Shown piece by piece: positions 5,625-63,920 of a DNA stretch of 64,000 nt. The position numbers and the translations under genes were made by a program. Origin of the DNA: Mobula hypostoma. Taxonomy: Eukaryota. The stretch's first letter is position 1. Every line of letters begins with the position of its first letter. The DNA is taken from positions 102,114,001 through 102,178,000 of the forward strand of contig NC_086105.1 of the NCBI RefSeq assembly GCF_963921235.1, read 5' to 3'. Below the pieces are notes generated by a model. That model searched no databases. It was not told where the DNA came from and was given only the letters and a program-made list of their open reading frames with translations.

Positions 5625-8600
5625 CTAAAAGTACAAAATAACAAAAGTTATTTCACAGTAAATAATTAATGGATTCAGTAAAATTTGATTTTAAATTGAT
5701 CACCTATCTATTTTCTGTAATAAATATAAAATGAAATGCTAAATGTGATCAATTTAAAGTATTAATGTAAAAATTTTAAAAAAACTACTGGTTTAAACTG
5801 GTTAACAAATTAGCCAGTTTGATTTTTAACTTTATAAATGCAGATTATTGCATCACTTACCCATGAAATGGGGCAGATTGACTTGAACACCCTGTGATAC
5901 CATTCACAGGGAGAAGTATCAACACCTTTTGCAGTCAATGCCTTGGTACAACGATGGAAATCTGTAAAACAATTGCAAATATAGCTTGGCTATAATTATC
6001 CAATCACATTCTGTCCTGCCCAGACTCAATTTTGAAATTGACTTTCCTCAATACAGGTGTCTCCCGCTTTTCGAACGTTCACTTTACGAAACCTCCCTGT
6101 TACGAAAGACCTACATTAGTTACCTGTTTTCGCTAACAAGGTGTTTTTCACTGTTACGAAAAAAGGCAGCACGTGCCCCGAGCAGCAAAGCTCCTCCCCC
6201 GGAATTGCATTCTAGCCGGCATTGCTTATACATGTGCCTGTGAGCAGCCGTTTGCAAGATGAGTTCTACGGTATCAGAAAAGCCTAAAAGAGCTCGTAAG
6301 GGTGCTACACTTAGCGTAAAACTAGACATAATTAAGCGTTTCGATTGTGGTGAACGAAGTAAGGACAAAATGAGTTTGGCTTGTGGAAGTTGACGAAGAT
6401 GATGTTGAAGAGGTTTTGGCATTCCATGACCAAGAACTGATAGATGAAGAGCTGCTGCAATTGGAAGAGGAAAAGATAAGAATCAAAACCGAATGCAGTA
6501 GCGAACGGACCGAAAGTGAAGTCGTCCAGGAACTGAACGTGAAGCAACTGCATGAGATGATAGAAAAATGCGCGAGGCTAAGCAGTCAAGCATACTGTCA
6601 TTTTTCAAGCCTTCCATATCAGTCACAGCAGAGGACGAACCCCGACCTTCGACATCGAGGCAGGCAGATATAGAAGAAGATGACCTGCCTGCCCTGATGG
6701 AAACAGACGATGATGACATGACACCCCAGTGTACCACCACCCCAACCCCCGGGCCGCAGACCGATACTTCGCTGCGGAGAATGCACCGGTAGCCGGGACG
6801 CACCCAGCAGATCTTTAAGAAAAAAAGCCGAAATAAACAAGCTCATTAATTACGTGCCGGGCAGCACCTAATTAATTAGCTTGTTTATTTCGGCTTTTTT
6901 CTTAAAGATGTGCTGGGTGCGTCCTGGCGACCGCTGCATTCTTCACGGATTGGTATCGGTCGGCGGCCTGGGGGTTGGGACGACTGCACCACCCCAACCT
7001 CCAACAACTCAGCCTAACAAACCAACATCAGTGTGCTCGATGCTGTCTTCCCAATTCTGGTAAGTGATACTACACTGTACATAACATTATTTCTACTTTA
7101 TATAGGCTGTGTATTTTTATGTGTTATTTGGTATGATTTGGCAGCTTCATAGCTTAAAGGTTACTGGAGAGAATGTTTCTGCTGAGAGTGCTTGCGTGAG
7201 ATTTTCACTACAGAGAACAGTGCAGCAATGATTGTAGAAAAGTATTTCTACTTTATATAGGCTGTGTATTTATCATATCATTCCTGCTTTTACTATATGT
7301 TAACTGTTATTTTAGGTTCTATGTGTTATTTGGTATGATTTGGTAGGTTATTTTTTGGGTCTGCGAACGCTCATAAATTTTTCCTATTTAAATAAATGGT
7401 AATTGCTTCTTCACTTTACGACATTCTGGCTTACAAACCGTTTCATAGGAACGCTCTACCTTCTGATGGTGGGGGAAACCTGTATTATAAACATGTTGAT
7501 GACACAAAGGTTGGGGATGTTGAGGTTAGTGTGGAGGGCTGTCAGAAGTTATAGTGGGACATCGATTGGATGCAAAACTGGGCTGAGAAGTGGCAGATGA
7601 AATTCAACACAGCTAAGTGTGAGGTGGTTCATTTTGGTAAGTCAAATATGATGGCACAATATAGTATTAATGGTAAGACTCTTGGCAGTGTGGAGGATCA
7701 GAGGAGTCTTGGGGTCCGAGTCCATAGGACACTCAAAGCTGCTGCGCAGGTTGAATCTGTGGGCAACCGTGTATTGGCCTTCATTAACCGTGGGATTGAG
7801 TTCAAAAGCCGAGAGGTAATGTTACAGCTATATAGGACCCTGGTCAGACCCCACTTGGAGTACTGTGCTCAATTCTGGTCACCTCACTACAGGAAGGATG
7901 TGGAAACTATAGAAAAGGTGCAGAGGAAATTTAAAAGGATGTTGCCTGGATTGGGGAGCATGCCTTACGAGAATAGGTTGAGTGAACTCGGCCTTTTCTC
8001 CTTGGAGTGATGGAGGATGAGAGGTGACCTGATAGAGGTGTATAAGATAATGAGAGGCATTGATCGTGTGGATAGTCAGAGGAATTTTCCCAGGGCTGAA
8101 ATGGCCAACACGAGAGGACACAGTTTTAAGGTGCTTGGAAGTTGGTACAGAGGGGTTGTCGGGGCAAGATTTTTTTTAAACGCGGAGGGTGGTGGGTGCA
8201 TGGAATGGACTGCCAGTGACTGTGGTGGAGGCAGATACAATAGGGTCTTTTAAAAGACTCCTGGATAAGGACATGGAGCTTAGAAAAATAGAGAGCTATG
8301 GATAATCCTAGGTAATTTCTAATGTAAGTACATGTTCGGCACAGCATTGTGGGTGCTGTAGGTTTTCTATGTTTCATGTTTTAAAAAACTGTCTATTATA
8401 TGACACCTTGTCAAAAAAAGCCTTGCTAAGTTCCACAAAGGCTATTACAAATTGCCCAATCTTAGATGATTCATCTTCAAAAGCAGATCTCCTAAACAAA
8501 TCCAAGCTGACAGTTCTTCAAGAATCTATATTTCCTATGTAGATTGATATTAATGGTACAGTTATGCTATTGTCAAGATTTTTTTTCAATAATTTGTCCT

Positions 8601-17881: not shown

Positions 17882-19856
17882 CGCGAACACGAGGAAATCT
17901 GCAAATGCTAGAATTTCAAGCAACACACATAAAAATTGCTGGTGAATGCAGCTAACCAGACAGCATCTATACGAAGCCGTACAGTTGACGTTTCGGGCCG
18001 AGACCCTTCATCAGGACTAACTGAAAGGAGAGATAGTAAGAGATTTGAAAGTGGGAGGGGGAGGGGGAGATCCGAAATGATAGGAGAAGACAGGAGGCCT
18101 TATTCTGCTAGACGGAGCAGAGTGGTGGTAGAGGGGAATCCAAAAGGAAACGGAGAGCTTTAAGACCTTCCTGGTGGGGGATGGAAGTATATAGGGACTG
18201 GACATTACCACCACTCTGCTCCGTCTAGTGGAATTAGTCCTTACTCTTAATAATTTCTCCTTTGGCTCCTCCCACCTCCTCCAAACTAAAGGTGTAGCCA
18301 TGGGCACCCATATGGGTCCCAGCTATGCCTGCCTTTGTGTTGGCTTTGTGGAACAATCCATGTTTCAAGCCTATACTGGTATCTGTCCCCCACTTTTCCT
18401 TCGCTACATCCACGACTGCATTGGCGCTGCTTCCTGCACGCACGCTGAGCTCGTTGACTTCATTAACTTTGCCTCCAACTTTCACCCTGCCCTCAAGTTT
18501 ACCTGGTCCATTTCGGACACCTCCCTCCCCTTTCTTGATCTTTCTGTCTCTATCTCTGGAGGCAGTTTATCTATTGATGTCTACTATAAGCCTACAGACT
18601 TTCACGGCTACCTGGACTGTCTCTTGCAAAAATGCCATCCCCTTCTCGCAATTCCTCCGTCTCCGCCGCATCTGCTCTCAGGATGAGGCTTTTCATTCCA
18701 GGACAAAGGAGGATGTCCTGGAATGAAAAGCCTCATCCTCATCCTTTTTTAAAGAAAGGGGCTTCCCTTCCTCCACCATCAACTCCGCTCTCAAACGCAT
18801 CTCTCCTATTTCACGCACATCTGCTCTCACCCCATCCTCCTGCCACCCCACTAGGAATAGGGTTCCCTTTGTCCTCACCTACCACCCCACCAGCCTCCGG
18901 GAGGTCCAACATATTATTCTCCGTAACTTCCGCCACCTCCAACGGGATCCCACCACTAAGCACATCTTTCCGTCCCCCACCCTGCTTTCCGCAGGGATCG
19001 CTCCCTACGCAACTCCCTTGTCCATTCCTTCCCCGCCCATCCCTTCCCATCGATCTCCCTCCTGGCACTTATCCTTGTAAGTGGAACAAATGCTACACAT
19101 GCCCTTACACTTCCTCCCTCACCACCATTCAGGGCCCCAGACAGTCCTTCCAGGTGAGGTGACACTTCACCTATGAGTCGCCTGGGCTGATATACTGCAT
19201 CCGGTGCTCTCGATGCGGCCTTCTATATATCGGCGAGACCCGACGCAGGCTGGGAGACGGTTTCGCTGAACACCTACGCTCTGTCCGCCACAGAAAGCAG
19301 GATCTCCCAGTGGCCACCCATTTTAATTCCACGTCTCATTCCATTCTGATATGTCTATCCACAGCCTCCTCTACTGTAAAGATGAAGCCACACTCAGGTT
19401 GGAGGAACAACACCTTATATTCCGTCTGGGTAGCCTCCAACCTAATGGCATGAACACTGACTTCTTTAACTTCCGTTAATGCCCCACTTCCCCTTCGTAC
19501 CCATTATTTTTTTTCTCTCTCTCTCTCTCTCTCCTTTTTCTCCCTCTGTCCCTCTCACTATACCCCTTGCCCATCCTCTGGGCTTCCCCCCTCCCCCTTT
19601 CTTTCTCCCTAGGCCTCCCGTCCCATGATCCTCTCATATCCCTTTTGCCAATCACCTGTCCAGCTCTTGGCTCCATCCCTTCCCCCTCCTGTCTTCTCCT
19701 ATCATTTCAGATCTCCCCCTCCCCCTCCCACTTTCAAATCTCTTACTAGCTCTTCTTTCAGTTAGTCCTGACGAAGGGTCTCGGCCCAAAACGTCGACTG
19801 CACCTCTTCCTATAGATGCTGCCTGGCCTGCTGCGTTCACCAGCAATTTTTATGTG
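17882..19856 (+). mobile_element. 5'-truncated Neptune-type PLE (RT, Cys-rich linker, GIY-YIG) with inverted 5' pLTR/RT segment
   Basis: RT motifs QTKGVAMGTHMGPSYA, RYIHD, LPFLDL; linker CKWNKCYTC; GIY-YIG LIYCIRCSRCGLLYIGET. Segment 17882-18205 is in reverse orientation. 13-bp TSD TCCAGCTTAATAA at 17869-17881 and 19857-19869. Confidence 0.93.
17982..18019 (-). ncRNA. minimal hammerhead ribozyme motif, sense to cox6b pre-mRNA
   Basis: TAGTC-CTGATGA-A-GGGTCTCGGCCC-GAAAC-GTC-AACTG; one stem I mismatch. Confidence 0.65.
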
Positions 19857-20115
19857 TCCAGCTTAATAAGTAATTATTTCAAAATACCATTACCCAGGAT
19901 GTAAATACCTTCATTTGAATTCAAAACATGTTGAAAAATAAAAAATATGGGTGGTATAAATTTAACCAACACTTGACAATTCAAACATGAATCAATACAT
20001 ACAGTATTATCAAAGAAAGATTACTATTTTAGGGATTTGAAAGAAATAGATTCCAAGCTCTACTTTTATGTTATTTTTCTAGTACTTACGCAAAACCCCA
20101 TCTGACTATAGAGCT

Positions 20116-22704: not shown

Positions 22705-23835
22705 GCTTGTTTCCAGGATGAAGGAGATGTCCTTTTTTAAAGAAAGGGGCTTCCCTTCCTCCACCATCAATTCTCTTCTCAAACGCATCTCCCCCATTTC
22801 ACACACATCTGCTCTCGCTCCATCCTCCTGCCACCCCACCAGGAATAGGGTTCCCCTTGTCCTCACCTACCACTCCACCAGCCTCTGGGTCCAACATATA
22901 ATTCTCTGTAACTTCCGCCACCTCCGACGGGATCCCGCCACCACTAAGCACATCTTTCCCTCCCCCCCACTTTCCACAGGGATCGCTCCCTACGCGACTC
23001 CCTTGTCCATTTGTCCCCCCATCCCTCCCCACCAATCTCCCTCCTGGCACTTATCCTTGTAAGCGGAACAAGTGCCACACATGCCCTTACACTTCCTCCC
23101 TCACTACTATTCAGGGCCCCATACAGTCCCTCCACGTAAGGTGACACTTCACCTGTGAGTCGGCTGGGGTGATATACTGTGTCTGGTGCTCCCGATGCGG
23201 CTTTCTATATATTGGCGAGACCCGACGCAGACTGGGAGACCGCATTGCTGAACACCTACACTCAGTCCGCCAGAGAAAGCAGGATCTCCCAGTGGCCACA
23301 CATTTCAATTCCACCTCCCATTCCCATTCTGATGTCTATCCACGGCCTCCTCTACTGTCAAGATGAAGCCACACTCAGGTTGGAGGAACAACACCTTTAT
23401 TCTGTCTGGGTAGCCTCCAACCTGATGGCATGAACATTGACTTCTCAAACTTCTGCTAATGCCCTACCTCCCCTTCGTACCCCATCCGTTATTTATTTAT
23501 TTATATACACACATTCTTTTTCTCTCTCTCCTTTTTCTCCCTCTGTCCCTCTCACTATAGCCCTTGCCCATCCTCTGGGCTTCCCTCTCTCCCCCTTTTC
23601 TTTCTCCCTAGGACTCCTGTCCCATAATCCTCTCATATTCCTTTTGCCAATCAAATGTCCAGCTCTTGGCTCCATCCCTCCCCCCTCCTGTCTTCTCCTA
23701 TCATTTCGGATCTCCCCCTCCCCCTCTCAAATCTCTTATCAACTCTTCTTTCAGTTAGTCCTGACGAAGGGTCTCGGCCCGAAACGTCGACTGTACCTCT
23801 TCCTAGAGATGCTACCTGGCCCGCCTGCATTCACC
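22705..23835 (+). mobile_element. PLE 3' fragment (RT thumb, linker, GIY-YIG, pLTR)
   Basis: FFKERGFPSS, RVPLVLTYH, IYCVWCSRCGFLYIGETRRRLGDRIAEH; colinear with 18740-19856. Confidence 0.92.
23756..23793 (+). ncRNA. intact minimal hammerhead ribozyme motif
   Basis: TAGTC-CTGACGA-A-GGGTCTCGGCCC-GAAAC-GTC-GACTG; predicted cleavage 3' of 23788. Confidence 0.8.
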
Positions 23836-26350
23836 AGCAACTTTTATATGTGCTTGTATTCCCTTTCCCACACTTTACTCTCTCTCCATCTCCTACTCAA
23901 AGCAAAGATAGGGTAGCCCTATCTACCCCTCCAACCTCCGTATTCAATGGACCAATTTCTGGCACATTCAATGAGATGCTACTAGCAATATTCCAAATGG
24001 ACTGTTGCCTTCTTGACCTACTGGTTACTACACAGGCAGAACTAGACCAAATGGCCCCTTAAGCTTGCCCTATCATTTAATCATTGCTGCCTTTCCTCAG
24101 CCCTCAACCTCCTCTCATGAGCTGGTATGCAAAACTACCACCTGTGTTGGAGACTTGCTCACTGCCTGTAACGTAATATGTGTTTTGAAACTGATTCCAT
24201 TGCATTACTATGATTCATGAACACAAGGTCACAACGCATTGAAAAAATAACCAAGTTATAAGAGAACAAGTTATTCAGCAGGATAAAACAGGAATTTATT
24301 ATGAATCACATTTCTCTCACAGTATTTCTCATCTTTGATACAATACAAGAACACCATTGTAAAACATGAAAATAAGTTCAATCTGCCATTATATCTAAAT
24401 ATTATAACGTACCCAAACCATAAGCAGTTAATTTCAAAACACATTAAACTACATATGGTAAAATGAATGTTGATTAAAATCAGTGTAGCGTTTTGGAGTA
24501 CATACAAAGAAAACCACACAGCACAAAGTAATAATATTGTCACATTCTCAAGGTAACTGGTACTCTGCACATACAAGGTCACCAATGAAGAAATACAGTT
24601 TTGAAATTTTAGTACTTTAGTAATGTGAACTTCTGTTTCATCTAAAATTAAGTTTTCTATCTTTGTATTAATTCATCTGCCTACAAAGGTAGGTTGGATT
24701 AAATTGGCAATCTGTTTTTGGCATGTTTAATTTAATGATTTTTAATCAGTGAATGCGCAAAATGTTGACATCTGTGTAATCAATTTGTGTCATTGTCTAA
24801 CACAAAAGAGGTTAAGATTGCAAGTATGTAATACAAAATAAGCAGTGAGAATACACATCAATAAATTAGTCATACAGATACAATATATCAACCATTTTGT
24901 AAATGTATATAATCATTAACTAGTACTCTTTGGAGGCATTTAAAACTTAATTAGAATATTGAGTTTATTAATTTAAAACCTGAAGCATAAAGTTCATGCC
25001 GATAGCAACAATTCATTTTGCTGCGATCATTAAACTGAATTTTTATTTACACCAACATCCAGTTGCTCATGAAAGAAGAAACAAAAAGTGGCCTTTTTCA
25101 TGACTTCAGAAAATTGTACAGTGCTTATAGCCCATGAATTATTTCTGAAATCCGGTCACTACTGTAATATCGCAAATAAGGCAGCAAATTTATATAGCAA
25201 ACTTCCAGAAACAATGACAAAGTAACTTAAAAATACCCAAATTATCTATTTTATTCCTTGAAGAATAAATATTGGCAAGTACATCAGGGTGAACGGCTCT
25301 GCTTTCTAGAAATGTCACGGTATATTTTAATTCAAGAAATCCAATTCAACATTGCATCCAAAAAACGCATTAGTCACTGGAGTCAATCTACTGTACTAGA
25401 CTGAATGATATGGTTCTGGCTCTGAAATGAGTCTTAAACTATAACCTTATGACTCAGACAAAAGTCTGACAGCCAATCAAGGCAGAAAAATTACTGTGCA
25501 TTGTTTTTGCAACTTCAGCCATTAGTTTTTTCTTGTAATTTGTATATTGAAGTATTATAGATCTTTTCCCACATATTAAAATAACCTGCTCAATACTGGC
25601 AATCAATAACTTAAGGCCATTTGGCATATCTTCAGCCACAGCTGCAGAAATATTTTATTGGTAAAGATGGCACATTGACACAATATAATCACAAATCAGA
25701 GCTTCTTGATTTCCCAGTGTTTTTTTTTAATAAATTAATTGACCTGTTTTAAAATGGAAACTTATTTTCTCCACAACTCTTTTCAAAAGTGCACTGAAGC
25801 TTCTTTGCTCAGCCAGGTTTCTTCATTAATAAAGATCTAGGAGGAGCAATAAGTTTGTAATTAAATGCAATTAAAATGCTTCTTTATATTGTAGTTAGCA
25901 TAATTTTAAACAAAACACCATATACAAATTATAATACAGAGCAAGGTTCACAGTATTCATCATCGATTGCCTGATAGAAACCCTGTTCTTAAAGTCAGAT
26001 TTTGTGAATGTCATTTTTGGGTACCCTTAAGTATCAAAAATGATACAATTTGTAAAAAGATACTTTTCAGAATGTCAAGACAATTTAAAGTAAAAATAAA
26101 TCCTAGCAAATCCATCAACGTGCATTTTCTGTCATTTTTTTTCCAAATCTGGGATGATCATATGTAGTGGTTTGAAACCACCTACCTATCTATATTTGAC
26201 TTGAGCACATAAAAGGTTACATTTTATATAATTACAACTCCCTAAATTATTTTGGTCTAAAATTGGAGTGCAACAATACATGGAAGCAGTAAGCAAAATA
26301 CATTATTCCAAGTCATCTTTATCTTACATTCCTCTGGCATCATACAAATA

Positions 26351-43600: not shown

Positions 43601-46600
43601 CATTTTTCACAAAGGTAGGCAGAGAGAGCTGAAGTTTAACATATCAATAAAATACATACTTTTCTAATTGTTTACCATTGTAAAGTACAAGTGAAATGGG
43701 CCATTGGTCTCCAACAAAGGCTCACAATGATCCCAGTCAAAACTACCAACTACACATAGACCCCAAACAACAGAGAATCTGCAGATGCTGGAAATCAAAG
43801 TAATACACACAAAATGCTTCAGATGCTGCCTGGCCTGCTGAGTTCCTCCATCGTTTTGTATGTATGACTACACATGGAGGCAAGTTTTGCTATTGATGCT
43901 TCATTGTCAAAAATCCAACACCTGGTGTTTTGGCCCACCTGAAGAAAATGGAATGAGCTTTTCCAGAACCTTATTAATTGTGTAAATGTATTTCAAGAAA
44001 TTAAAAGTGGCAATAAGCACAAATAGAAACACAAATATCTTAGCAGTTACCTTGAATAAAGAGAATATAGTAGGCCCCAGTATTGGTAATATGAATCAGG
44101 GGACTGGAAGGCATGAAACCTTTGGTAATATTGCGGTACACTTTTTCACCAATGGGATCTCCATTCTTTCCAGATATTAGCAGGAAAATCAATGTATTAA
44201 CTGAGATACCCTAGAAGCAAAAACACAGAACTCATTCTAAATGCATATGTACGGCTATAGACAAACCCTGCTCCTCAGTGTCTAGGGAAACCCCACAACC
44301 AGCCAACCACGTAAGCCAGTTTATGTGGAGGCTGCATAAACGCCCAATTCACAGATCAGACAGAACATCATAAGCGGTTCAATACGTACACTTTATAAAT
44401 CTTGCCGTGAATATCGGTTAACAAAGAATACACTCTAAAAGAAAAACAAAGGAAGGCGCCAAAGTTCAAATGGAGTTTTAAAAGTCAGTGCACTTAAGGT
44501 TTTGTTGGAGCTCAATATCCCGCAGAACCTCAACCCTCCGTCCTCGGCCTCCGACGACCCGCACGGGACCACTCCTCGGGTGGTCAACCAGAGCGCCTCC
44601 GATTGCGACCTTCCTCCGTCTTCTCCACCCGATAAACCCGCCAAACCACATGGTCCCCAGCCATATGAGACAGAATATCACCCACAAAAAGAATAACATG
44701 GACACCCATTGGTTCGTTCTCCCCCTTATCAATTATATAACCCAAACAAGCAGGGGAGAGAGAGAACTCCTTACATCGCAGTTATTATTCAGAAAAGCCA
44801 TTTTATATAACATACAAAGAAGCCATTTTAGACACCTCAGCAGCCAGTGTAACCAAGACCCAGTTACACTCTGCCCCCACCAAATAAAGTCATGTCCCCA
44901 TGACATTAAAGGAGTTCACCAATCCTCCTTGCAAAACACATAACCCAACCCAGGTGCATAAAGCAGTGACATAACTTCCCAGGGCGGTAGAGATCACACC
45001 TTGTTCTCCCCGTGCTACATAGGTCAACCTCTCCGGGGGGCGGGGGGGGGGGTTCCTACTTCTCTGAGACCTCTGTACCTCCTCTGGTGACCCTTCCGGC
45101 TCAGACACCACTGGAGATATCTCGGGTCTGCTTGCCAAATCCTCTCTGAGTCTCTTACTCATGCCCCCACTGCAACCTGGAGCCTCCTGTCCTGTGTCTA
45201 GGCACCCGTCTCTCCTTCAGGGTCCTGCAGTAACCCAGGTTGCCCACAGCTAGCCCCCCCAGCCCCACCTCACCTGCCTCAGTGGGCCAGGAGTCTCTTC
45301 ATCAGCAAGGGGAAGTTAGTGAAAAGCGGCATGCAACACACCTTCATCTCATCATCCTTTGAATCCACATTCTTCTCCTTTTCCTTGATTTGTAGCTGCT
45401 GTTTGGTTTTCTCCAAACTGGAGCACTTGGCCTGAGCTGCCTCTGCCGCCTCTTCAGCCTCCTGCAAATCGAGACGTCAGCTTCTTCACTGACTCCTCTG
45501 CTTCCAGCCGCAGTAGTTCAGACTCACGCTTTGTGTTCATCTCTATCTGGGACGCAGTTACACCACCAGCTTCTTCCAAGCTGTTCTGGATCAATTTCTC
45601 CAGTTTCTGCTGATCATTTCGAAGGTTGGTCATTGTTTCATCTCTCTGGATTACTTCACCAGTAAATGACCGCAGTTTCAGCTCGGAATTCAGTTTCCCC
45701 GTCTTCACTTTGACAAGCGTAGACTCCAATTCTTCAATCTTTGTCCCAAAATTGCAGCACTCAGTCTCCAGCCTGCATCCCTGAGCGTTCAGTTCAGCGG
45801 TGCAAATTTCCTCTCTCAGCAGAACAGTCACGAGCTGCGTCCTTCTCCAGACTTGGCACTCATCCAACTAAAGTTTTACTTCGTTAACCCCTAGTCGCCT
45901 GGGATCCCTCACTCGCCTCGCTTCATAGTCGTCCAAGGCGAATCCCACAGAGACACACCAGCACTGATTTAAACAGGGCAAACATGCAGCATCCTACAAA
46001 AATCCATATTCCGGACGAGCCCCCAGAATGTAAAGCTATAGACAAACCCTGCTCATCAGTGTCTAGGGAAACCTTGCAACCAGCTAACTACGTAAGCCAG
46101 TTTATGTGGAGGCTGCGTAAATGCCCAGTTCACAGATCAGACAGAACACCATAAGTGGTTAAATACGTACACTTTATAAATGTTACTGCGAATATCGGTT
46201 AACAAAGAATACACTCTAAAAGAATAAAACAAATGTAACTGGGTCTTGGTTACACTGGCTGCTGAGGTGTCTAAAATGGCTTCTTTGTATGTTATATAAA
46301 ATGGCTTTTCTGTAATAATATCTGTGATGTAAGGAGTCCTCTCTCTCCCTGCTTGTTTGGGTTATATTATTGATAAGGGAAGGAACGATTCAATGAGTGT
46401 CCATGTTATTCTTTTTGTGGGTGATATTCTGTCTCATATGGCTGGGGACCGTGTGGTTTGGTGGGTTTTTCGGGCAGAGAAGACGGAAGAAGGTCGCATT
46501 CAGTGGTGCTCTGGTCGACCACCTGAGAAGTGGTCCCGAGCAGGTCGTCGGAGGCCGAGGACGGAAGGTCGAAGTTCTGCGGGATATTGAGCTCCAACGA

Positions 46601-49600
46601 AACCTTAAGTGCACTAACTTTTAAAACTCTATTCGAACTTTGGCGCCTTTCTTTGTGTAAGGAGTTTCTTCTTTCATGTTACTTGCTGAGGCTAATAAAA
46701 TGGTTTCGCTGTAGTGTTATAATAAAATGGCTTCTCTGTAATTTTAACTGATGTGGTAATGTTCTCTGTAGCGGCATGTTTAGGTTATAATTAGTGATAA
46801 TGGGACTTGTATTCGTTTGCTAACCAACCGGGATAGATGTTATTCTTTCTTGTGTATGTGAAAGCTGTTGTTCGCGCGGGATTTGAGGGAAAAGGTGCGA
46901 GGAGGATGAAGAGAGAAGAGGTGGCTTGAGGAGACGGTTGCCAGACCCGCTAGGCCTGGGCTTGGGGCAGGACCCCGGGGCCAACTAGCGGAGGAGGATC
47001 AGCGAAAGGGCATCAGTGAGCTCCAACGTTTGTGCACTGGACATGTTTATGAGATTATTGGTGCCTTTTATTTGTTTTCCTTTTCTTTTGTTTCTCTACT
47101 AACCCCGTACTTAGATATAAAATCTTAATCGTTTAACCACACATTGTGGACTGAATGTTATTTTGGGGTACTGATGTTACACAGGGGACACAACATGCAG
47201 CATCCACCCAAACAAGAGTGCTAAAGTTTGGCCAGGGAGGGGGCCCCACCCCCGCGATCATGCCACTAGGTGCAATGAGTCTTACACATACATATCTGCC
47301 AGTCATATTCAACGCAACCACCTTGTACAAAGTCAAAAGTGCACGTGCTTGAAGTTATTGTAGTAATTATCAATTACCTTACAGTTTGCTAATTCTTTAT
47401 ATAAATGACCACACGGTATTGACTTCTTAAAAAATTTTATTTAGTGATAACAGTTTGGAGTACAGGTTTCCCCTGCCATCCGAAGGTAGAGCGTTCCTAT
47501 GAAACGGTTCGTAAGCCGAAATGTCGTAAAGCGAAGAAACAATTACCATTTACTTATATGGGAAAATTTTGTGAGCATTCGCAGACCCAAAAATAACCTA
47601 CCAAATCATGCCAAATAACACATAAAACTTAAAAATAACGGTAACATATAGTAACAGCAGGAATGATATGATAAATACACAGGCTATATAAAATAGGAAT
47701 ACTTCTCTACAATCATTGCTGCACTGGTCTCCGTAGCGAAAATCTCATGCAAGCACTCTCGGCAGAAACACTCTCTCCAGTAACCTTTAAGCTATGAAGC
47801 TGCCAATTCATACCAAATAACACATAAAAATACACAGCCTATATAAAGTAGAAATAATGTATGTACAGTGTAGTATCACTTACCGAAATTGGGAAGACAG
47901 CGCCAAGCACACTGATGATGGTGTTAGGCTGAGTTGTTGGAGGTTGGGGTGGTGAAGTGGCCCCCAACCTCGGACTGCCGACCGATACCGATCCGCGAAG
48001 AATGCAGCGGTGGTCGGAACGCACCCAGCACATCTTTAAGAAAAAAGCCGAAATAAACAAGCAAATTAATTAGGTGCCACCCAGCACGTAAATGTCGGCC
48101 CAGATCAGAGGAGACACAATTGGCAATCGCCTCTGATCTAGGTCGACATTTACTTGCCGGGTGGCACCTAATTAATTAGCTTGTTTAATTTTGGCTTTTT
48201 TTTCTTAGATGTGCTGGGTGCCTCTCGGCTACCGCTGCATTCTCCACAGCCCAGGGGTTGGGTTGCTTTGTTTCCATCAGGGCTGGCAGGTCATCTTCTT
48301 CTATGTCTGCCTGCCTCAATGTTGAAGGTCGAGGTTCGTCGTCTGCTGTGGCCGATGTGGAAGGCTTGCTTGACTGCTTAGCCTTGCGCATTTTTCTATC
48401 ATACAGTTCTTTGTAAGCACTCAAACCATCTTGCAAATATGCCCTAAACCGACATACCCTTTCAAAATTAAAGTCGTACTTTATCATTGCAGCGAAAATC
48501 TCACGCAGTTGCTTCACGTTCAGTTCCTGGACGTCTTCACTTTCGGTCCGTTTGCTACTGCATTCGATTTCGATTGTTATCCTTTCCTCTTCCAATTGCA
48601 TCAGCTCTTCATCTATCAGTTCTTGGTCAAGGGATGCCAAAACCTCTTCAACATCATCTTCCTCAACTTCCACGTGCCAAACTCACTTTGTCCTTACTTT
48701 GTTCACCACGATCGAAATGCTTAATTATGTCTAGTTTTACACTAACACCCAACGAGCTCTTTTAGGCTTTTCCAATACCTTAGAAGTCACCTTGCTAACG
48801 GCTGCTCATGGGCACGTGTTTAAGCAATGCCGGCTAGAATGCAGTTTCGGGGGAGGAGCTTGGCTGCTTGGGGCACATGCTGCCTTTTATCACGCGCTGC
48901 TTTTTTCGTAACAGTGAAAACACCTTCTGTTAGCGAATTCTGTTAACTAATGTAGGTCTTTCATAACAGTGAGGTTTCGTAAATCAAACGTTCGAAAAGC
49001 GGGGGACACCTGTACCATTTCCTACTTCCGGTCTTTTGCACCACGCTGCCACAGCAACCCCCAACAGACTGGATTAACCCAAACCTAACCATAGGATAAT
49101 ATACAATGACCAATTAACCCACCCGCTATGTCATTGGACTGTGGGAAGACACCGGAGCACCCGGAGAAAACCCACACATTCCACAGGGAGGACATACAGA
49201 CTCTTTACGGAGACCGCTACAATTTAACTCCAAAATACAGAACGCCCCCGAGCTGTAAAATAGTCGTGCTAACAGCTACGCTACCGTGGCGCGCTAATAA
49301 ATGGCATTGATAAATTTTGAAATCTACATGGCAGTCCAATGATACCAAGCTTAGAGGTTTATCAATCAACTTGCAAGTTAGAGATAGGCCAGAAGAATGT
49401 GCAGACAAGTGGCAGATGGAATTTAACACAAAAATAGATGCAATTCACCAGCAAAAGAAATGGGAAGTGGCAACGTATACCACATGTCATAAATCTAAAG
49501 ATTTGTGCAGGAACAGAGGGTCTGGGGATTGAGTGCATTGAACTTTGAATACGGCAGAACATTAGGAAAGAGTAGTCAATGAATCATGTGGCATCTTGGG

Positions 49601-52600: not shown

Positions 52601-55023
52601 AAATGTTGCAGCTGTACCTGGCTCAACTACTTCCTTTGCCAGCTCATTCCAGGTACTCACTATCCTCTGTGGAAAGAAGTTACCTCTTGGGTCCCTTTTA
52701 AATCTCTGCCCTCTTATTGTGTATGTGCCCTCTGCTTTGGACTCCCCAACCCTGAGGAAAAGACTATGACCATCCACTTTATCCATGCTTCTCATGATTT
52801 TATAAACTCCTGAGGCCACCTCTCATTCTCCCATCTTCCAAGGAATAAAGATCCAGTGTTGCCGACCTCTTCTTCCAACTCAGACCCTCTAGTCCATGTA
52901 AGATTGTTGTAAATCTTTTCTATACCCTCTCCAGTTTGACAATGTCCTTCCTATAACAGGGCGACCAAAACTGTACACAATTCTCCAAGTGCAGTGTCAC
53001 CGATGACATACAGCTGCAACTTAATACACCTTCTCCTAAACTCTAGGTCTTGTCTGACCAAGGCGAGAACGTGAAATACATTCTTCACCACCGTCTACTT
53101 GTGTGGCTGCTTTCAGCAAACTATGCACCCCTAGGCCCCGCTGTTCTACAACACCAGCCATGGCCCTAACATTCACAGTACAAGTCCTTTCCTGGTTTAA
53201 TGTCCCAAAAAGCGCTATCTCACATTTTTTTCTGAATTGAAAGCCATTTGACAATCTTCAGTTCACATATCTAGCTAACCAAATTCCCTGCCTGTAATTT
53301 TTCATAGCCTTCTATATTACATACAGTACTACCTATTTTAATATCATTTGCAAACTTACTAACCATGCCTTGTACATTAATATCCAAGTAACTTATATAA
53401 AGTACAAAATACAAAGGTCTCAACATCAACACCTGTGACACACCACTGGACACAGGCTTGCAGTCTGAGGAACAACTCTTGACCATCATCCTCTGCTTTC
53501 TACCATGGGGCTAATTATAAATCTAATCTGCTTCCAGACTAGCCTGCCATGAATGATCACATCAAGATCTTGCAACACACTTCAAAGTTGCTGGTGAACG
53601 CAGCAGGCCAGGCAGCATCAATAGGAAGAGGTACAGTCGACGTTCCAGGCCAAGAGCCTTCGTCAGGACTGACGAAGGGTCTCGGCCTGAAACGTCGACT
53701 GCACCTCTTCCTAGAGATGCTGCCTGGCCTGCTGCATTCACCAGCAACTTTGATGTGTGTTGCTTGAAATTCCTGCATCTGCAGAATTCCTCGTGTTTGC
53801 AACATCAAGATCTTGCTAAGGTCCATATGGACACCAGCCAATGTCCCACTCTCATTTACCACTTGGTTACCTCCTCGAAGAACTCCAGGAAAGGACAGTA
53901 AGAAAAATGTAAGCTGTTTCACTGAGATTGTGATATACAGAAATTAACTACAAATTTTTGGAATATGCCAAGATATTTTTCAGAAAAGAGTGATATTTTA
54001 TAATTTTCTTCATTCCTTCATACAAATTAGTACAATGAGAAAACTCTGAATTTCATTATACTGCCCTCAAATTATATTCTAATTAAATGGAAAAGTGGTA
54101 AAGCTAATCGGTGAGAATACCAAGGGAAGAGAATATTGTTAGGTTCACTATCAATAACTTTTCAAAAGGTTCAGGACCTTCAATACATAAAGAGCCAGCT
54201 TGATTTAATTATGAAAATCAGCAATCTGTATAATTAAAGTGAAGGCATCAAGTTAACAGCAAACTGAAGTAATACAGAAATTGGAGTACCAATATAATAA
54301 AAGCAAAACAAAAATATCATGCACAACTACGATAGTCCCTTACCGTCATATGAACACGATCCATTGTTAGTGTCGTTGGCGTCCTTGAATGCAAACATCA
54401 CATCTGCAACTTTGTCTTTGTTCGCATCCCACAGTGTGAGAAAAGGGTAAGTTACTGAAATACGATAAATGAAAAAATATTTTCAGGTCTCAATATCTTA
54501 TTTCTGTTTAATGAATTGAGTATGTTTGTATCTTCTCAAATAGCAAGAACTCAAGAAAATATAACCAAACTGCTTTTAGAAATCTTGAAATTATTGACCT
54601 GTCAATAAAACTAACAAGTAAAATTTAACATATAAAAAAGTAATATTTCTTTAAAATGATAAACATTTAAATCCATATTGCTCTTATTATTTTGCATAAT
54701 TTAATGTAATTATCCAAGTCTCAAGAATGATAAGAAACACATTTAACTTTACCTGCATTTTCAAATGTTCCGGTCCATGTCCTTTGTGATGAAGGCCTCA
54801 CTGGGCAAGGAATTACGAAGGAAAATGCAAACACCACCACAAGGCATAAAAATAAGACCAAGAAAAAAGCAGCGGTTCTCCACCAGGAAAGCTGACGAAA
54901 TTTTGTAACCTTTTTGGACTTGGTTTCTTTGGGCTTGTCAGAAGCTTCATTCAAGTCTTGAGTTCTGACTTCTTCATTTTTCAGAGGATGTATCTCTGCC
55001 TCTAAATCTTTGTTTTCAGTCAT
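28419..55023 (-). CDS. fam234a: FAM234A / ITFG3 type II membrane beta-propeller protein; complement(join(28419..28627,33791..33902,35017..35166,38918..38999,41225..41371,41666..41816,44051..44210,50314..50444,51683..51871,54344..54454,54753..55023)), 570 aa
   Basis: Eleven GT-AG exons join in frame (1713 nt). N-terminus MTENKDLEAEIHPLKNEE; TM segment WRTAAFFLVLFLCLVVVFAFSFVIPCP; FG-GAP-like DANKDKVAD and PDLDGDEVGD; C-terminus FYRMRYSS*; head-to-head with luc7l as in human. Confidence 0.94.
28730..29420 (+). mobile_element. CR1 RT fragment
   Basis: YRPVSLTSVV, QHGFLKGKSCLTNLLEFFEE. Confidence 0.88.
29820..31340 (+). mobile_element. Rex1/Babar-like LINE 3' end split by a hAT element
   Basis: IKDPHHPGHALFLLLPSGRR...RFKNSYY-type motif at 29830-29960; resumes at 31251 and ends in an actttgaacttt tail. 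Confidence 0.65.
30110..31242. mobile_element. hAT/Charlie-type non-autonomous element
   Basis: 8-bp TSD TTCTATAG at 30102-30109 and 31243-31250; right end GGTTGAGAAACACTC; left TIR partly deleted. Confidence 0.7.
31490..33600 (-). mobile_element. old CR1 fragments interrupted by an RTE and an inverted CR1 piece
   Basis: LYKSLARPYL, IYLEFQKAFDN; a plus-strand CR1 3' piece at ~33130-33340; boundaries approximate. Confidence 0.65.
31765..32793 (+). mobile_element. RTE-clade LINE 3' fragment
   Basis: ELLYVDD, FTYPGGVIS, LLYGSEVW, FHQRCL; CCATCACCATCA tail. Confidence 0.85.
33791..33902 (-). CDS. fam234a: fam234a exon (LQEGFSEKSYNLYMVHPSHPNVILELRNSTENVIAFT)
   Basis: Two in-frame acceptors (exon start 33902 or 33896); gtaagt donor. 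Confidence 0.9.
35017..35166 (-). CDS. fam234a: fam234a exon (VTIVDGKSGKILWE...IFLFWGELPTQNNVS)
   Basis: tag acceptor, gtaagt donor, 150 nt. Confidence 0.92.
35330..35710 (+). mobile_element. old degraded PLE GIY-YIG fragment
   Basis: Colinear with 23040-23410 but heavily diverged; a degraded pLTR/hammerhead follows at ~37340-37500. Confidence 0.6.
37740..38245. repeat. interspersed repeat (RTE 5'-UTR-like), copy 2
   Basis: Colinear with 16050-16630. Confidence 0.7.
38918..38999 (-). CDS. fam234a: fam234a exon (VPLPGYFNMDDVFDFLIEDFIEKDKKK)
   Basis: cag acceptor, gtttga donor; phases fit both neighbours. Confidence 0.88.
41225..41371 (-). CDS. fam234a: fam234a exon (SQTTKYLQQVHVPGKNAG...LLDGQSLQTCW)
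   Basis: cag acceptor, gtaa donor, 147 nt. Confidence 0.92.
41666..41816 (-). CDS. fam234a: fam234a exon (NGQGVALKDIY...KSDPEWEKK)
   Basis: cag acceptor, gtgagt donor, 151 nt. Confidence 0.92.
44051..44210 (-). CDS. fam234a: fam234a exon (GISVNTLIFLLISGKNG...HITNTGAYYILFIQ)
   Basis: tag acceptor, gtaact donor, 160 nt. Confidence 0.9.
44248..46655 (-). mobile_element. non-autonomous Gypsy-type LTR retrotransposon: 3' LTR 44248-44868, PPT 44869-44882, tRNA-Pro PBS 46011-46025, rearranged 5' LTR 46029-46655
   Basis: TG...CA LTRs; PBS TGGGGGCTCGTCCGG 3 nt from the LTR end; purine-rich tract before the 3' LTR; integrase-tail-like RSQRSRNPPPRPPERLTY; no RT, RNase H or integrase core. Confidence 0.88.
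45330..45867 (-). pseudogene. captured myosin heavy-chain rod fragments inside the LTR element
   Basis: AELNAQGCRLETEC...IEELESTLVKV, LEEAGGVTASQIEMNTKRESELLRL, and (after a 1-nt frameshift) LQEAEEAAEAAQAKCSSLEKTKQQLQ match separate, non-adjacent parts of the sarcomeric myosin II coiled-coil. Confidence 0.8.
46656..47286 (+). mobile_element. solo LTR of a related but distinct family
   Basis: TGTAAGG...TCTTACA ends; shares short motifs with the first LTR (gctgagg..aaaatgg, gagctccaacg, tggygcctttt); followed by CATA, which matches 44244-44247. Confidence 0.75.
47463..49012 (-). mobile_element. Tigger/pogo-type non-autonomous DNA transposon, second copy
   Basis: TA TSDs at 47461-62 and 49013-14; reverse complement of 6054-7482; ORF 48185..48673. 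Confidence 0.9.
49030..49293 (-). mobile_element. V-SINE (HE1-like, tRNA-derived head)
   Basis: Head GCGCGCCACGGTAGCGTAGCTGTTAGCAC; V-domain GTGGGTTTTCTCCGGGTGCTCCGG..CCCACAGTCC. Confidence 0.75.
49320..50170 (+). mobile_element. old CR1 3' fragment
   Basis: ADKWQMEFN; LRGDLIDV. Confidence 0.7.
50314..50444 (-). CDS. fam234a: fam234a exon (GETLWRLNTS...PDLDGDEVGDFLLFLVPADQ)
   Basis: aag acceptor, gtatgg donor, 131 nt. Confidence 0.92.
51312..51454 (-). pseudogene. degenerate local duplicate of the 3' half of fam234a exon 51683-51871 plus adjacent intron
   Basis: Aligns to 51637-51786; 7-bp deletion; GT donor lost. Confidence 0.85.
51683..51871 (-). CDS. fam234a: fam234a exon (EGLSHPCAHLTLLSGTNGSLLW...CLVIGINQYLSTISSS)
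   Basis: cag acceptor, gtatat donor, 189 nt. Confidence 0.92.
52092..53890 (-). mobile_element. CR1 LINE fragments (two tandem 3' ends)
   Basis: FFPQRIVSTWNEL, VSKFANDIKIG; atagaatc tails at ~52092 and ~52456. Confidence 0.8.
53574..53801. mobile_element. palindromic PLE-pLTR element with head-to-head hammerhead motifs
   Basis: 15-bp TSD ACATCAAGATCTTGC at 53559-53573 and 53802-53816; ~95-bp inverted arms centred at ~53667. Confidence 0.88.
54344..54454 (-). CDS. fam234a: fam234a exon (VTYPFLTLWDANKDKVADVMFAFKD...SCSYD)
   Basis: cag acceptor, gtaagg donor, 111 nt. Confidence 0.93.
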
Positions 55024-63693: not shown

Positions 63694-63920
63694 GACACAC
63701 AAAATGCTGGAGGAACTCAGCAGGCCAGGCAGCATCTATGGAAAGAGAGTACAGTCGAAGTTTCAGGCCATGACCCTTCATCAGGCCCTTCCTGCTGAAG
63801 GGTCTCGGCTGGAAACGTTGACTATACTCTCTTCCCATAGATGCTGCCTGGCCTGCTGAGTTCAACCAGCATTTTATGTGTGTTGCTTCGATTTCCACCA
63901 TATGCAGATTTTCTCCTGTT
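63694..63920. mobile_element. palindromic PLE-pLTR element
   Basis: Inverted arms around ~63787 with degraded hammerhead cores on both strands. Confidence 0.8.

What the first reader, a model, noticed from the sequence alone, without database searches (positions are those of the whole stretch)
44244..47290. Base-exact fossil of an integrase reaction joining two LTR families: inverted 5' LTR and a composite with two U5 ends
Seen in sequence: the intact LTR-A is 44248-44868 (-). The other LTR-A is cut in two. Its U5 part (46029-46233) is on the minus strand, and its U3 part (46234-46655) is flipped to the plus strand and begins exactly at the TGTAAC terminus. The 4 bases at the cut occur on both pieces (CAAA 46230-46233; TTTG 46652-46655). 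One copy joins LTR-A's own TG end and the other joins the TG end of a different LTR-B (46656-47286). The whole composite is flanked by CATA (44244-47, 47287-90). Established knowledge: integrases join CA-3' ends to staggered target sites, and autointegration can invert segments. Inference: the U3 ends of two different cDNAs concertedly attacked A's own LTR, the two remaining U5 ends inserted into the genome, and B later collapsed to a solo LTR. This would imply co-packaging or cross-mobilisation, with B a possible helper family.
Basis: partly seen in the sequence, partly recalled or inferred. Interest (0 to 1): 0.7.

Follow-up and report, generated by a model that had tools for sequence, protein, structure and literature searches.

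The report
Crossed-end insertion of two retrotransposon copies
A dead jumping-gene insert joins pieces of two related families at their exact ends, and it likely formed when two DNA copies from one shared particle swapped partners, so that the two 'front' ends cut into one of the copies and the two 'back' ends went into the chromosome.

Summary
Real and as described. All four joints sit on LTR termini confirmed by other copies. Both families make 4-bp duplications. A relative's contig shows the empty site with one CATA. Both are Ty3/Gypsy families.

New here: element A's interior is a single-crossover mosaic, B-type from the primer site to 45130 and A-type from 45115. None of 19 other A-type copies with interior in view is B-type. 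This points to A and B RNA sharing a particle.

Best reading (0.65, inferred): crossed pairing, U3(A)+U3(B) into A's own LTR and U5(A)+U5(B) into the chromosome; B later became a solo LTR. Main rival (0.25): ordinary nested B insertion plus an inversion through the 5-bp TGTAA/TTACA terminal repeat, which gives an identical sequence.

No second copy with the full signature was found; no contig spanning the inner joints was seen. The scan earlier noted related inverted-LTR copies in this genome and in others. Eight paper searches found no such integrated two-family product.

The parts
44244..44247 (.). Left target-site duplication CATA
   Evidence: single CATA at the empty site in organism D
44248..44868 (-). 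Intact 3' LTR of family A (621 bp); its U5 end faces host DNA
44869..44884 (-). Polypurine tract next to the U3 end of the intact LTR
   Evidence: sequence; same position in L049, L056, L068, L071
44869..45115 (-). A-type 3' interior
   Evidence: 32 of 32 diagnostic columns A-type
45115..45130 (-). Interval holding the B-to-A crossover (inferred template switch)
   Evidence: last B column 45130, first A column 45115
45130..46007 (-). B-type leader and interior, no integrase; closest relatives carry LTR-B
   Evidence: 35 of 36 diagnostic columns B-type over 45130-45371; leader alignment
45454..45867 (-). Open frame with captured myosin heavy-chain rod fragments, shared with B- and C-type elements
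   Evidence: L063 homologue to Myosin-4/7, best E 9.4e-09; 111 of 150 residues matched in the window
45941..45947 (-). 7-bp microhomology at an internal deletion of about 1.6-1.7 kb relative to L133 and L135
46008..46025 (-). Primer-binding site (tRNA-Pro type; the tRNA name is recalled, not tested)
   Evidence: sequence
46029..46233 (-). U5-side part of the cut 5' LTR-A (LTR positions 419-621), still next to the primer site
   Evidence: 18 differences in 199 compared bases
46230..46233 (+). First copy of the 4-bp cut site (CAAA), joined to A's own U3 terminus
46234..46655 (+). U3-side part of the cut LTR-A (positions 1-422), inverted
   Evidence: 33 differences in 421 bases, none in the first 79
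46652..46655 (+). Second copy of the 4-bp cut site (TTTG), joined to the U3 terminus of LTR-B
46656..47286 (+). Solo LTR of family B (631 bp); U3 end inside, U5 end facing host DNA
47287..47290 (.). Right target-site duplication CATA

Best explanation
The insert is one 3.04-kb unit between a single duplicated CATA, made of an A/B mosaic Gypsy copy whose 5' LTR is cut and partly inverted plus a solo LTR of the integrase-less family B, and it likely arose when two DNA copies from a shared particle paired their ends crosswise. Steps: (1, inferred) A and B RNA were packaged together, and reverse transcriptase switched from A to B about 240 bases into the interior, giving a copy with A LTRs and a B interior. 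(2, inferred) A second DNA with B LTRs was in the same complex. (3, inferred from the shown joints) Integrase held U3(A) with U3(B) and inserted them 4 bp apart on opposite strands at positions 419-422 of A's own left LTR, inverting the first 422 bases and fusing the two DNAs. (4, inferred from the shown target duplication) It held U5(A) with U5(B) and inserted them at CATA. Steps 3 and 4 could have come in either order. (5, inferred) The B copy later recombined down to a solo LTR. The product is dead.
For: All four joints are on family termini with 4-bp staggers, the length both families make. One insertion unit: empty site with one CATA. Independent sign that A and B RNA met: sharp mosaic, 35 of 36 B columns then 32 of 32 A columns, with a B-type leader behind an A-type U5 end. 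In one search, 10 of 10 other A-type 5' LTRs with a leader have an A-type leader and 9 of 9 other 3' LTRs with long interior are A-type. 0 of 29 other loci from the junction search repeat the mosaic. B has no integrase and so must borrow one. B is a small family: 49 exact hits to one 21-mer. Assuming 100-1000 B sites, an independent B hit inside a given 621-bp LTR has a chance of 2e-5 to 2e-4, and here it would have hit the one A copy that carries B interior. Ages are compatible: A pair 51 of 620 different (0.082), B pairs 0.070-0.112, window B with 36 of 613 minority letters, so B is not younger. Like ends can flank a target duplication in this group: L138 has two outward U3 ends between TACA repeats. 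Recombination of co-packaged RNAs (PMC5668417, passages) and opposite-strand autointegration (PMC7197481, PMC2644782, passages) are established.
Against: The rival nested-plus-inversion route gives identical letters. No second example with the full signature: 1 of 72 A-type U3 termini, 1 of 65 B LTRs, 0 of 40 C/B-type termini, the one being the window itself. L138's inner joint is not at a terminus, so it is not a clean second case. Trees are star-like: they show neither that the two A LTRs are sisters nor that LTR-B and the B interior come from one copy. Ordinary nesting into related LTRs does occur (L157, L196). The collapse of B to a solo LTR is assumed and left no trace. No contig spanning the inner joints was seen.
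Confidence: 0.65

Rival explanations
1. Ordinary nesting, then an inversion. A normal B complex inserted B in sense into A's 5' LTR at TTTG, most plausibly while both DNAs shared a particle. The composite integrated normally by A's two ends. Later the stretch from A's U3 terminus to B's U5 terminus flipped through the 5-bp TGTAA/TTACA inverted repeat, by template switching or microhomology repair.
For: It gives exactly the observed letters. It needs only normal end pairing. Nested insertions into related LTRs occur (L157, L196). Inversions near LTR ends exist in this group (L137, L138). A same-particle origin would also explain the mosaic and the equal ages.
Against: It needs an extra event with both breakpoints inside 5-bp windows at two termini. 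The inversions seen elsewhere have imprecise joints. No LTR flipped precisely at both termini beside a primer site or purine tract appeared in the both-strand screen of 264 loci, some overlapping. As two independent genomic events it needs a 2e-5 to 2e-4 coincidence. Organism B shows B's U5 end at the right joint, by 29 letters.
Confidence: 0.25
2. A miscopied DNA plus repair. Fold-back or multiple template switches in reverse transcription, or host repair of a half-integrated copy, assembled the pieces; integrase made only some joints, and the inner 4-bp match is partly chance.
For: Miscopied elements are present in this group: L138, L137, L234, L106. Host-made joints occur with one-ended integration (PMC5041404, passages).
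Against: Those copies have ragged joints. Here both inner joints are on exact termini with a 4-bp stagger on opposite strands, which copying or repair has no reason to make. Template-switch complexes in PMC1950507 (part 1 of 2 read) are two elements sharing a third LTR, with no cut LTR described in the part read.
Confidence: 0.08
3. Assembly artefact joining two repeats.
For: Repeat-rich region. The inner joints were not seen bridged by outside contigs. The first 79 bases of the two inverted U3 copies are identical.
Against: The empty site fixes both outer ends. The outer joints recur in a second organism. The LTR pieces differ by 8% overall. An assembler has no reason to create a 4-bp duplication at two termini.
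Confidence: 0.02

Closest known systems
Autointegration ('suicide') inversion circles of LTR retroelements (Arabidopsis SISYPHUS, PMC7197481, passages; HIV-1, PMC2644782, passages; Ty1, Garfinkel 2006, seen only as cited in PMC7197481)
   Same: LTR termini joined to opposite strands of the element's own DNA, inverting part of it.
   Different: There the product is a non-productive circle. Here both attacking ends are U3, one from another family, and the product is linear with two U5 ends, fixed in the germ line.
Recombination between co-packaged LTR retrotransposon RNAs (Onsen, PMC5668417, passages)
   Same: A single-crossover mosaic copy from two parents; explains the A LTR / B interior.
   Different: Shown within one family and giving ordinary two-LTR copies; no second DNA fused by integrase in the passages read.
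Three-LTR complex insertions (template switching, Sabot and Schulman 2007, PMC1950507, part 1 of 2 read; tandem LTR elements, PMC11899658, passages)
   Same: Three LTRs between one target duplication, so one insertion event.
   Different: Those are two elements sharing a third LTR, or tandems; here one LTR is cut and half inverted, the outer LTRs face opposite ways and belong to two families.
Alternative transposition of DNA transposons (Ac/Ds, VANDAL21; PMC12312487, passages)
   Same: Works like it: ends of two different elements are used in one complex, giving inversions and composites.
   Different: A transposase acting on chromosomal ends; here an integrase acting on free DNA copies is inferred.
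Aberrant one-ended retroviral integrations (PMC5041404, passages)
   Same: Rearranged inserts with extra element DNA in either orientation.
   Different: There one end is joined by host enzymes with large duplications or deletions; here all four joints are exact with 4-bp staggers.

Membership tests
Ty3/Gypsy LTR retrotransposon (families A and B) | pol order protease-RT-RNase H-integrase | tested here: met
   RVT_1 (27.4 bits, under the 29.6 cut-off), RT_RNaseH and rve in that order along L062; protease placed by eye, no Pfam hit; PNMA-type gag in L061 and L063
Ty3/Gypsy LTR retrotransposon (families A and B) | TG...CA LTRs, primer site, purine tract, fixed-length target duplication | tested here: met
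   4-bp duplications in 10 of 29 B and 7 of 29 A loci, none longer
Endogenous retrovirus | retroviral-type gag/pol, env gene | tested here: inconclusive
   PNMA gag and Gypsy-type RNase H Pfam hits point away from it; no RT tree was built and env was not searched for
Autointegration inversion product | LTR termini joined to opposite strands of own DNA with the family's stagger | tested here: met
   4-bp overlap, both joints on termini
Autointegration inversion product | U3 and U5 ends of the same DNA attack; product is a circle without free ends | tested here: not met
   both attacking ends are U3, from two families; the product sits between a target duplication
Template-switch three-LTR complex insertion | one target duplication around three LTRs | tested here: met
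Template-switch three-LTR complex insertion | near-identical outer LTRs and two complete interiors sharing an inner LTR | tested here: not met
   outer LTRs are inverted and of two families, alike only about 74% over about 120 bases; one interior
Ordinary nested insertion | inner element flanked by a direct duplication with the host element collinear on both sides | tested here: not met
   the duplication is inverted (CAAA/TTTG) and B's U5 end meets host DNA; met only if a later inversion is added
Co-packaging recombinant | sharp crossover between two parental types in a homologous region | tested here: met
Co-packaging recombinant | both RNAs shown in one particle | not testable with these tools
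   old, decayed copies; inferred only
Autonomous helper family (claim for B) | encodes integrase | tested here: not met
   0 of 10 B-LTR loci match the integrase core or C-terminus; 3 of 3 A/D loci do

The most novel reading that the evidence does not exclude
One particle holding an autonomous A RNA and a non-autonomous B RNA made two reciprocal recombinant DNAs in a single cycle. Their four ends assembled into two crossed integrase complexes, turning a normally suicidal self-integration into a heritable insertion. Gypsy particles would then yield two DNAs, integrase would not enforce U3-with-U5 or same-molecule pairing in vivo, and crossed pairing would be a route to inverted-LTR elements such as L138 and to chromosome rearrangement.
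Probability: 0.35. Interest if true: 0.72.

Novelty: new variant of a known kind. Interest (0 to 1): 0.5.

Why it matters
Self-integration is described as a dead end that gives circles. If the best reading holds, this locus records a case in which ends from two different DNA copies, of two families, were used together in a germ line, so the product survived. It also gives physical evidence, in one locus, of a non-autonomous family riding in its helper's particle, and it identifies A as a likely helper of the myosin-carrying B family. The structure defines a searchable signature: inverted outer LTRs, one target duplication, and two U3 termini at an inverted 4-bp repeat. A census of long-read assemblies could then measure how often integrase pairs ends across molecules. 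The element itself is a single dead copy with no sign of function.

Tried and rejected
B as helper family: rejected. Mosaic as a spreading subfamily: no second copy among 39 interior hits (29 fetched), 29 junction loci or 72 A-type termini; searches score only the best 40 candidates, so this is a sample. Inverted motif pair on C1 (L140): two independent solo LTRs, 78% alike; the other 4 close pairs among the 100 listed matches were ordinary elements. L137/L053, L234, L106: rearranged copies without exact terminus joints. A direct genome search for inverted LTR pairs was not possible, so the census is a sample, not complete. Gene conversion in the 79 identical bases: 0.6% of 351 random A pairs are identical there, but no rare letter is shared by the two window copies, so inconclusive. 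Sister tests by tree: unresolved. Pfam found nothing for the myosin-like frames; the match came from solved structures. No tRNA gene in the window. Lack of contig cover at the inner joints is not evidence either way. Garfinkel 2006 (PMC1676259) was not held. No supplements were read. Eight paper searches found no integrated two-family crossed product; subscription papers are not covered.
Full report
Observation. The sequence reads CATA, LTR-A reversed (44248-44868), interior reversed (44869-46028), LTR-A positions 419-621 reversed (46029-46233), LTR-A positions 1-422 forward (46234-46655), LTR-B forward (46656-47286), CATA. A purine tract lies beside the intact LTR and a primer site beside the 419-621 piece, so the cut LTR is the 5' one. 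The two pieces share exactly four bases. One copy is joined to A's own TGTAAC terminus and the other to B's TGTAAG terminus.

Families. LTR-B is a real LTR: 23 of 29 other fetched loci align end to end, 10 of 29 have an exact 4-bp flanking repeat and none a longer one, and the purine tract and primer site fix 46656 as the U3 end and 47286 as the U5 end. Family A behaves alike (7 of 29 with exact 4-bp repeats). Long A elements carry PNMA-type gag, RT, RNase H and integrase in Gypsy order. Exact-motif counts were 72 for the A-type U3 start and 49 for a B motif, against 1326 for a motif shared by the wider B/C group.

One insertion. In organism D a 1438-base contig joins 44243 to 47287 with four ambiguous letters, so the ancestral site has one CATA (two runs of one sample). 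Organism A (0 differences; it may be the assembly's own source, so not independent) and organism B (6 differences in 459 bases at the left joint) carry the left joint. No listed contig spans the inner joints.

The interior is not A-type. Its closest relatives carry LTR-B or related LTRs, and none of 29 carries LTR-A. The leader behind the primer site is B-type although the U5 end in front of it is A-type. Diagnostic columns run 35 of 36 B-type up to 45130 and 32 of 32 A-type from 45115 (profile). Among the other A-type termini, 10 of 10 leaders and 9 of 9 long 3' interiors are A-type. None of 29 junction-search loci repeats this mosaic; L118 is a different mosaic. By established reverse-transcription logic this is what a minus strand primed on A RNA gives if it switches to B RNA after the purine tract. 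Recombination of co-packaged RNAs is documented for Onsen (PMC5668417, passages).

Who helps whom. No B-LTR locus (0 of 10) and no C-type locus (0 of 4) matches the integrase core or C-terminus; L061, L062 (the query source) and L144 do. B carries myosin rod fragments in that region. I saw the myosin before the look-up; earlier scan notes prompted the integrase test. B is therefore the dependent family.

Age. The A pair differs at 51 of 620 bases (0.082). Other A pairs differ by 0.061 and 0.083, six B pairs by 0.070-0.112, and the window's LTR-B has 36 of 613 minority letters against a family median of 0.064 (end branch 0.074 against a median of 0.057). B is not younger than A, but the two families overlap in age, so this test is weak.

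Mechanism. If integrase made all four joints, the pairing is forced: U3(A) with U3(B) at the inner site and U5(A) with U5(B) at the host site. Opposite-strand self-integration is known but gives circles (PMC7197481 and PMC2644782, passages); a second DNA's end makes the product linear and insertable. B's reduction to a solo LTR is assumed; most B LTRs show no interior beside them. The same letters result if B nested normally in A's 5' LTR and the stretch from A's U3 end to B's U5 end later flipped through TGTAA/TTACA. As two independent events this needs a B hit in a given LTR (2e-5 to 2e-4 for an assumed 100-1000 B sites), in the one A copy with B interior. With B inserted from the same particle it needs only the extra precise inversion. 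I weigh these 0.65 to 0.25. The weights are judgement, not computation.

Other copies. The full signature occurs in 1 of 72 A-type termini, 1 of 65 B LTRs and 0 of 40 further termini; the one is the window. L138 has two outward U3 ends inside a TACA duplication and LTRs 42 of 663 apart, but its inner joint stops about 26 bases short of the U5 end. It shows like ends at one target duplication, not the whole reaction. L137, L234 and L106 are rearranged with ragged joints. L157 and L196 are nested in related LTRs, which helps the rival.

What is known. Nearest are inversion-type autointegration, co-packaging recombination, three-LTR complexes (PMC1950507, part 1 of 2; PMC11899658, passages), one-ended aberrant integration (PMC5041404, passages) and, by analogy, alternative transposition (PMC12312487, passages). 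It works like autointegration but fails its membership test. Eight searches found no integrated two-family crossed product; subscription journals and supplements were not seen. Earlier scan notes describe U3-U3 inverted copies in this genome and self-inserted inverted copies in fungi; they are unchecked leads. That the host is a ray comes from those notes, not from my calls.

Verdict. A real, single, dead insertion; a new variant of a known kind; interest 0.5. It is stronger than first read on co-packaging, wrong on the helper, and not uniquely decodable.

Noticed in passing
window 45454-45867 (-); L063:5178-5837; L064-L067, L133-L136, L141-L142: B- and C-type elements carry fragments of a sarcomeric myosin heavy-chain rod and lack RNase H and integrase matches; already noted by earlier scan findings.
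   Followed up: partly
L138:2491-6333 (G000:C64:8376990-8380832): Inverted-LTR element with two outward U3 ends in a TACA duplication; the inner joint is not at a terminus.
   Followed up: partly
L234:1211-1546 (G000:C1, near 26814110): 28 bases of a U3 start followed by about 38 bases that look like the 3' part of the primer tRNA (recalled likeness), then a reversed U5 and reversed interior: possibly a captured strong-stop DNA with its primer copied.
   Followed up: no
L137:1466-2916 (G000:C1:10702965): LTR-A joined tail-to-tail to the reversed 3' interior, a few bases short of both termini.
   Followed up: partly
L118, L104/L139 and L107-L131: Further mosaics among related LTR types (A-type U3 start on D-type LTR bodies; B-type interior with A-type 3' end in L118): recombination among these families seems common.
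   Followed up: no
window 44790-44868 and 46234-46312: The first 79 bases of the two inverted U3 copies are identical while the rest differs by about 9%; gene conversion or chance.
   Followed up: partly
window 46695-46750; L065, L066: LTR-B has a short internal direct repeat; 'short' LTRs lacking about 37 bases occur beside 'long' ones, even within one element (L065).
   Followed up: no
window 18742-19857 / 22730-23851, 6850-7497 / 47449-48091, 53572-53763, 63695-63881: Other repeats in the window: a 1.1-kb direct pair at 88%, and several palindromic MITE-like elements, one just right of the composite.
   Followed up: no
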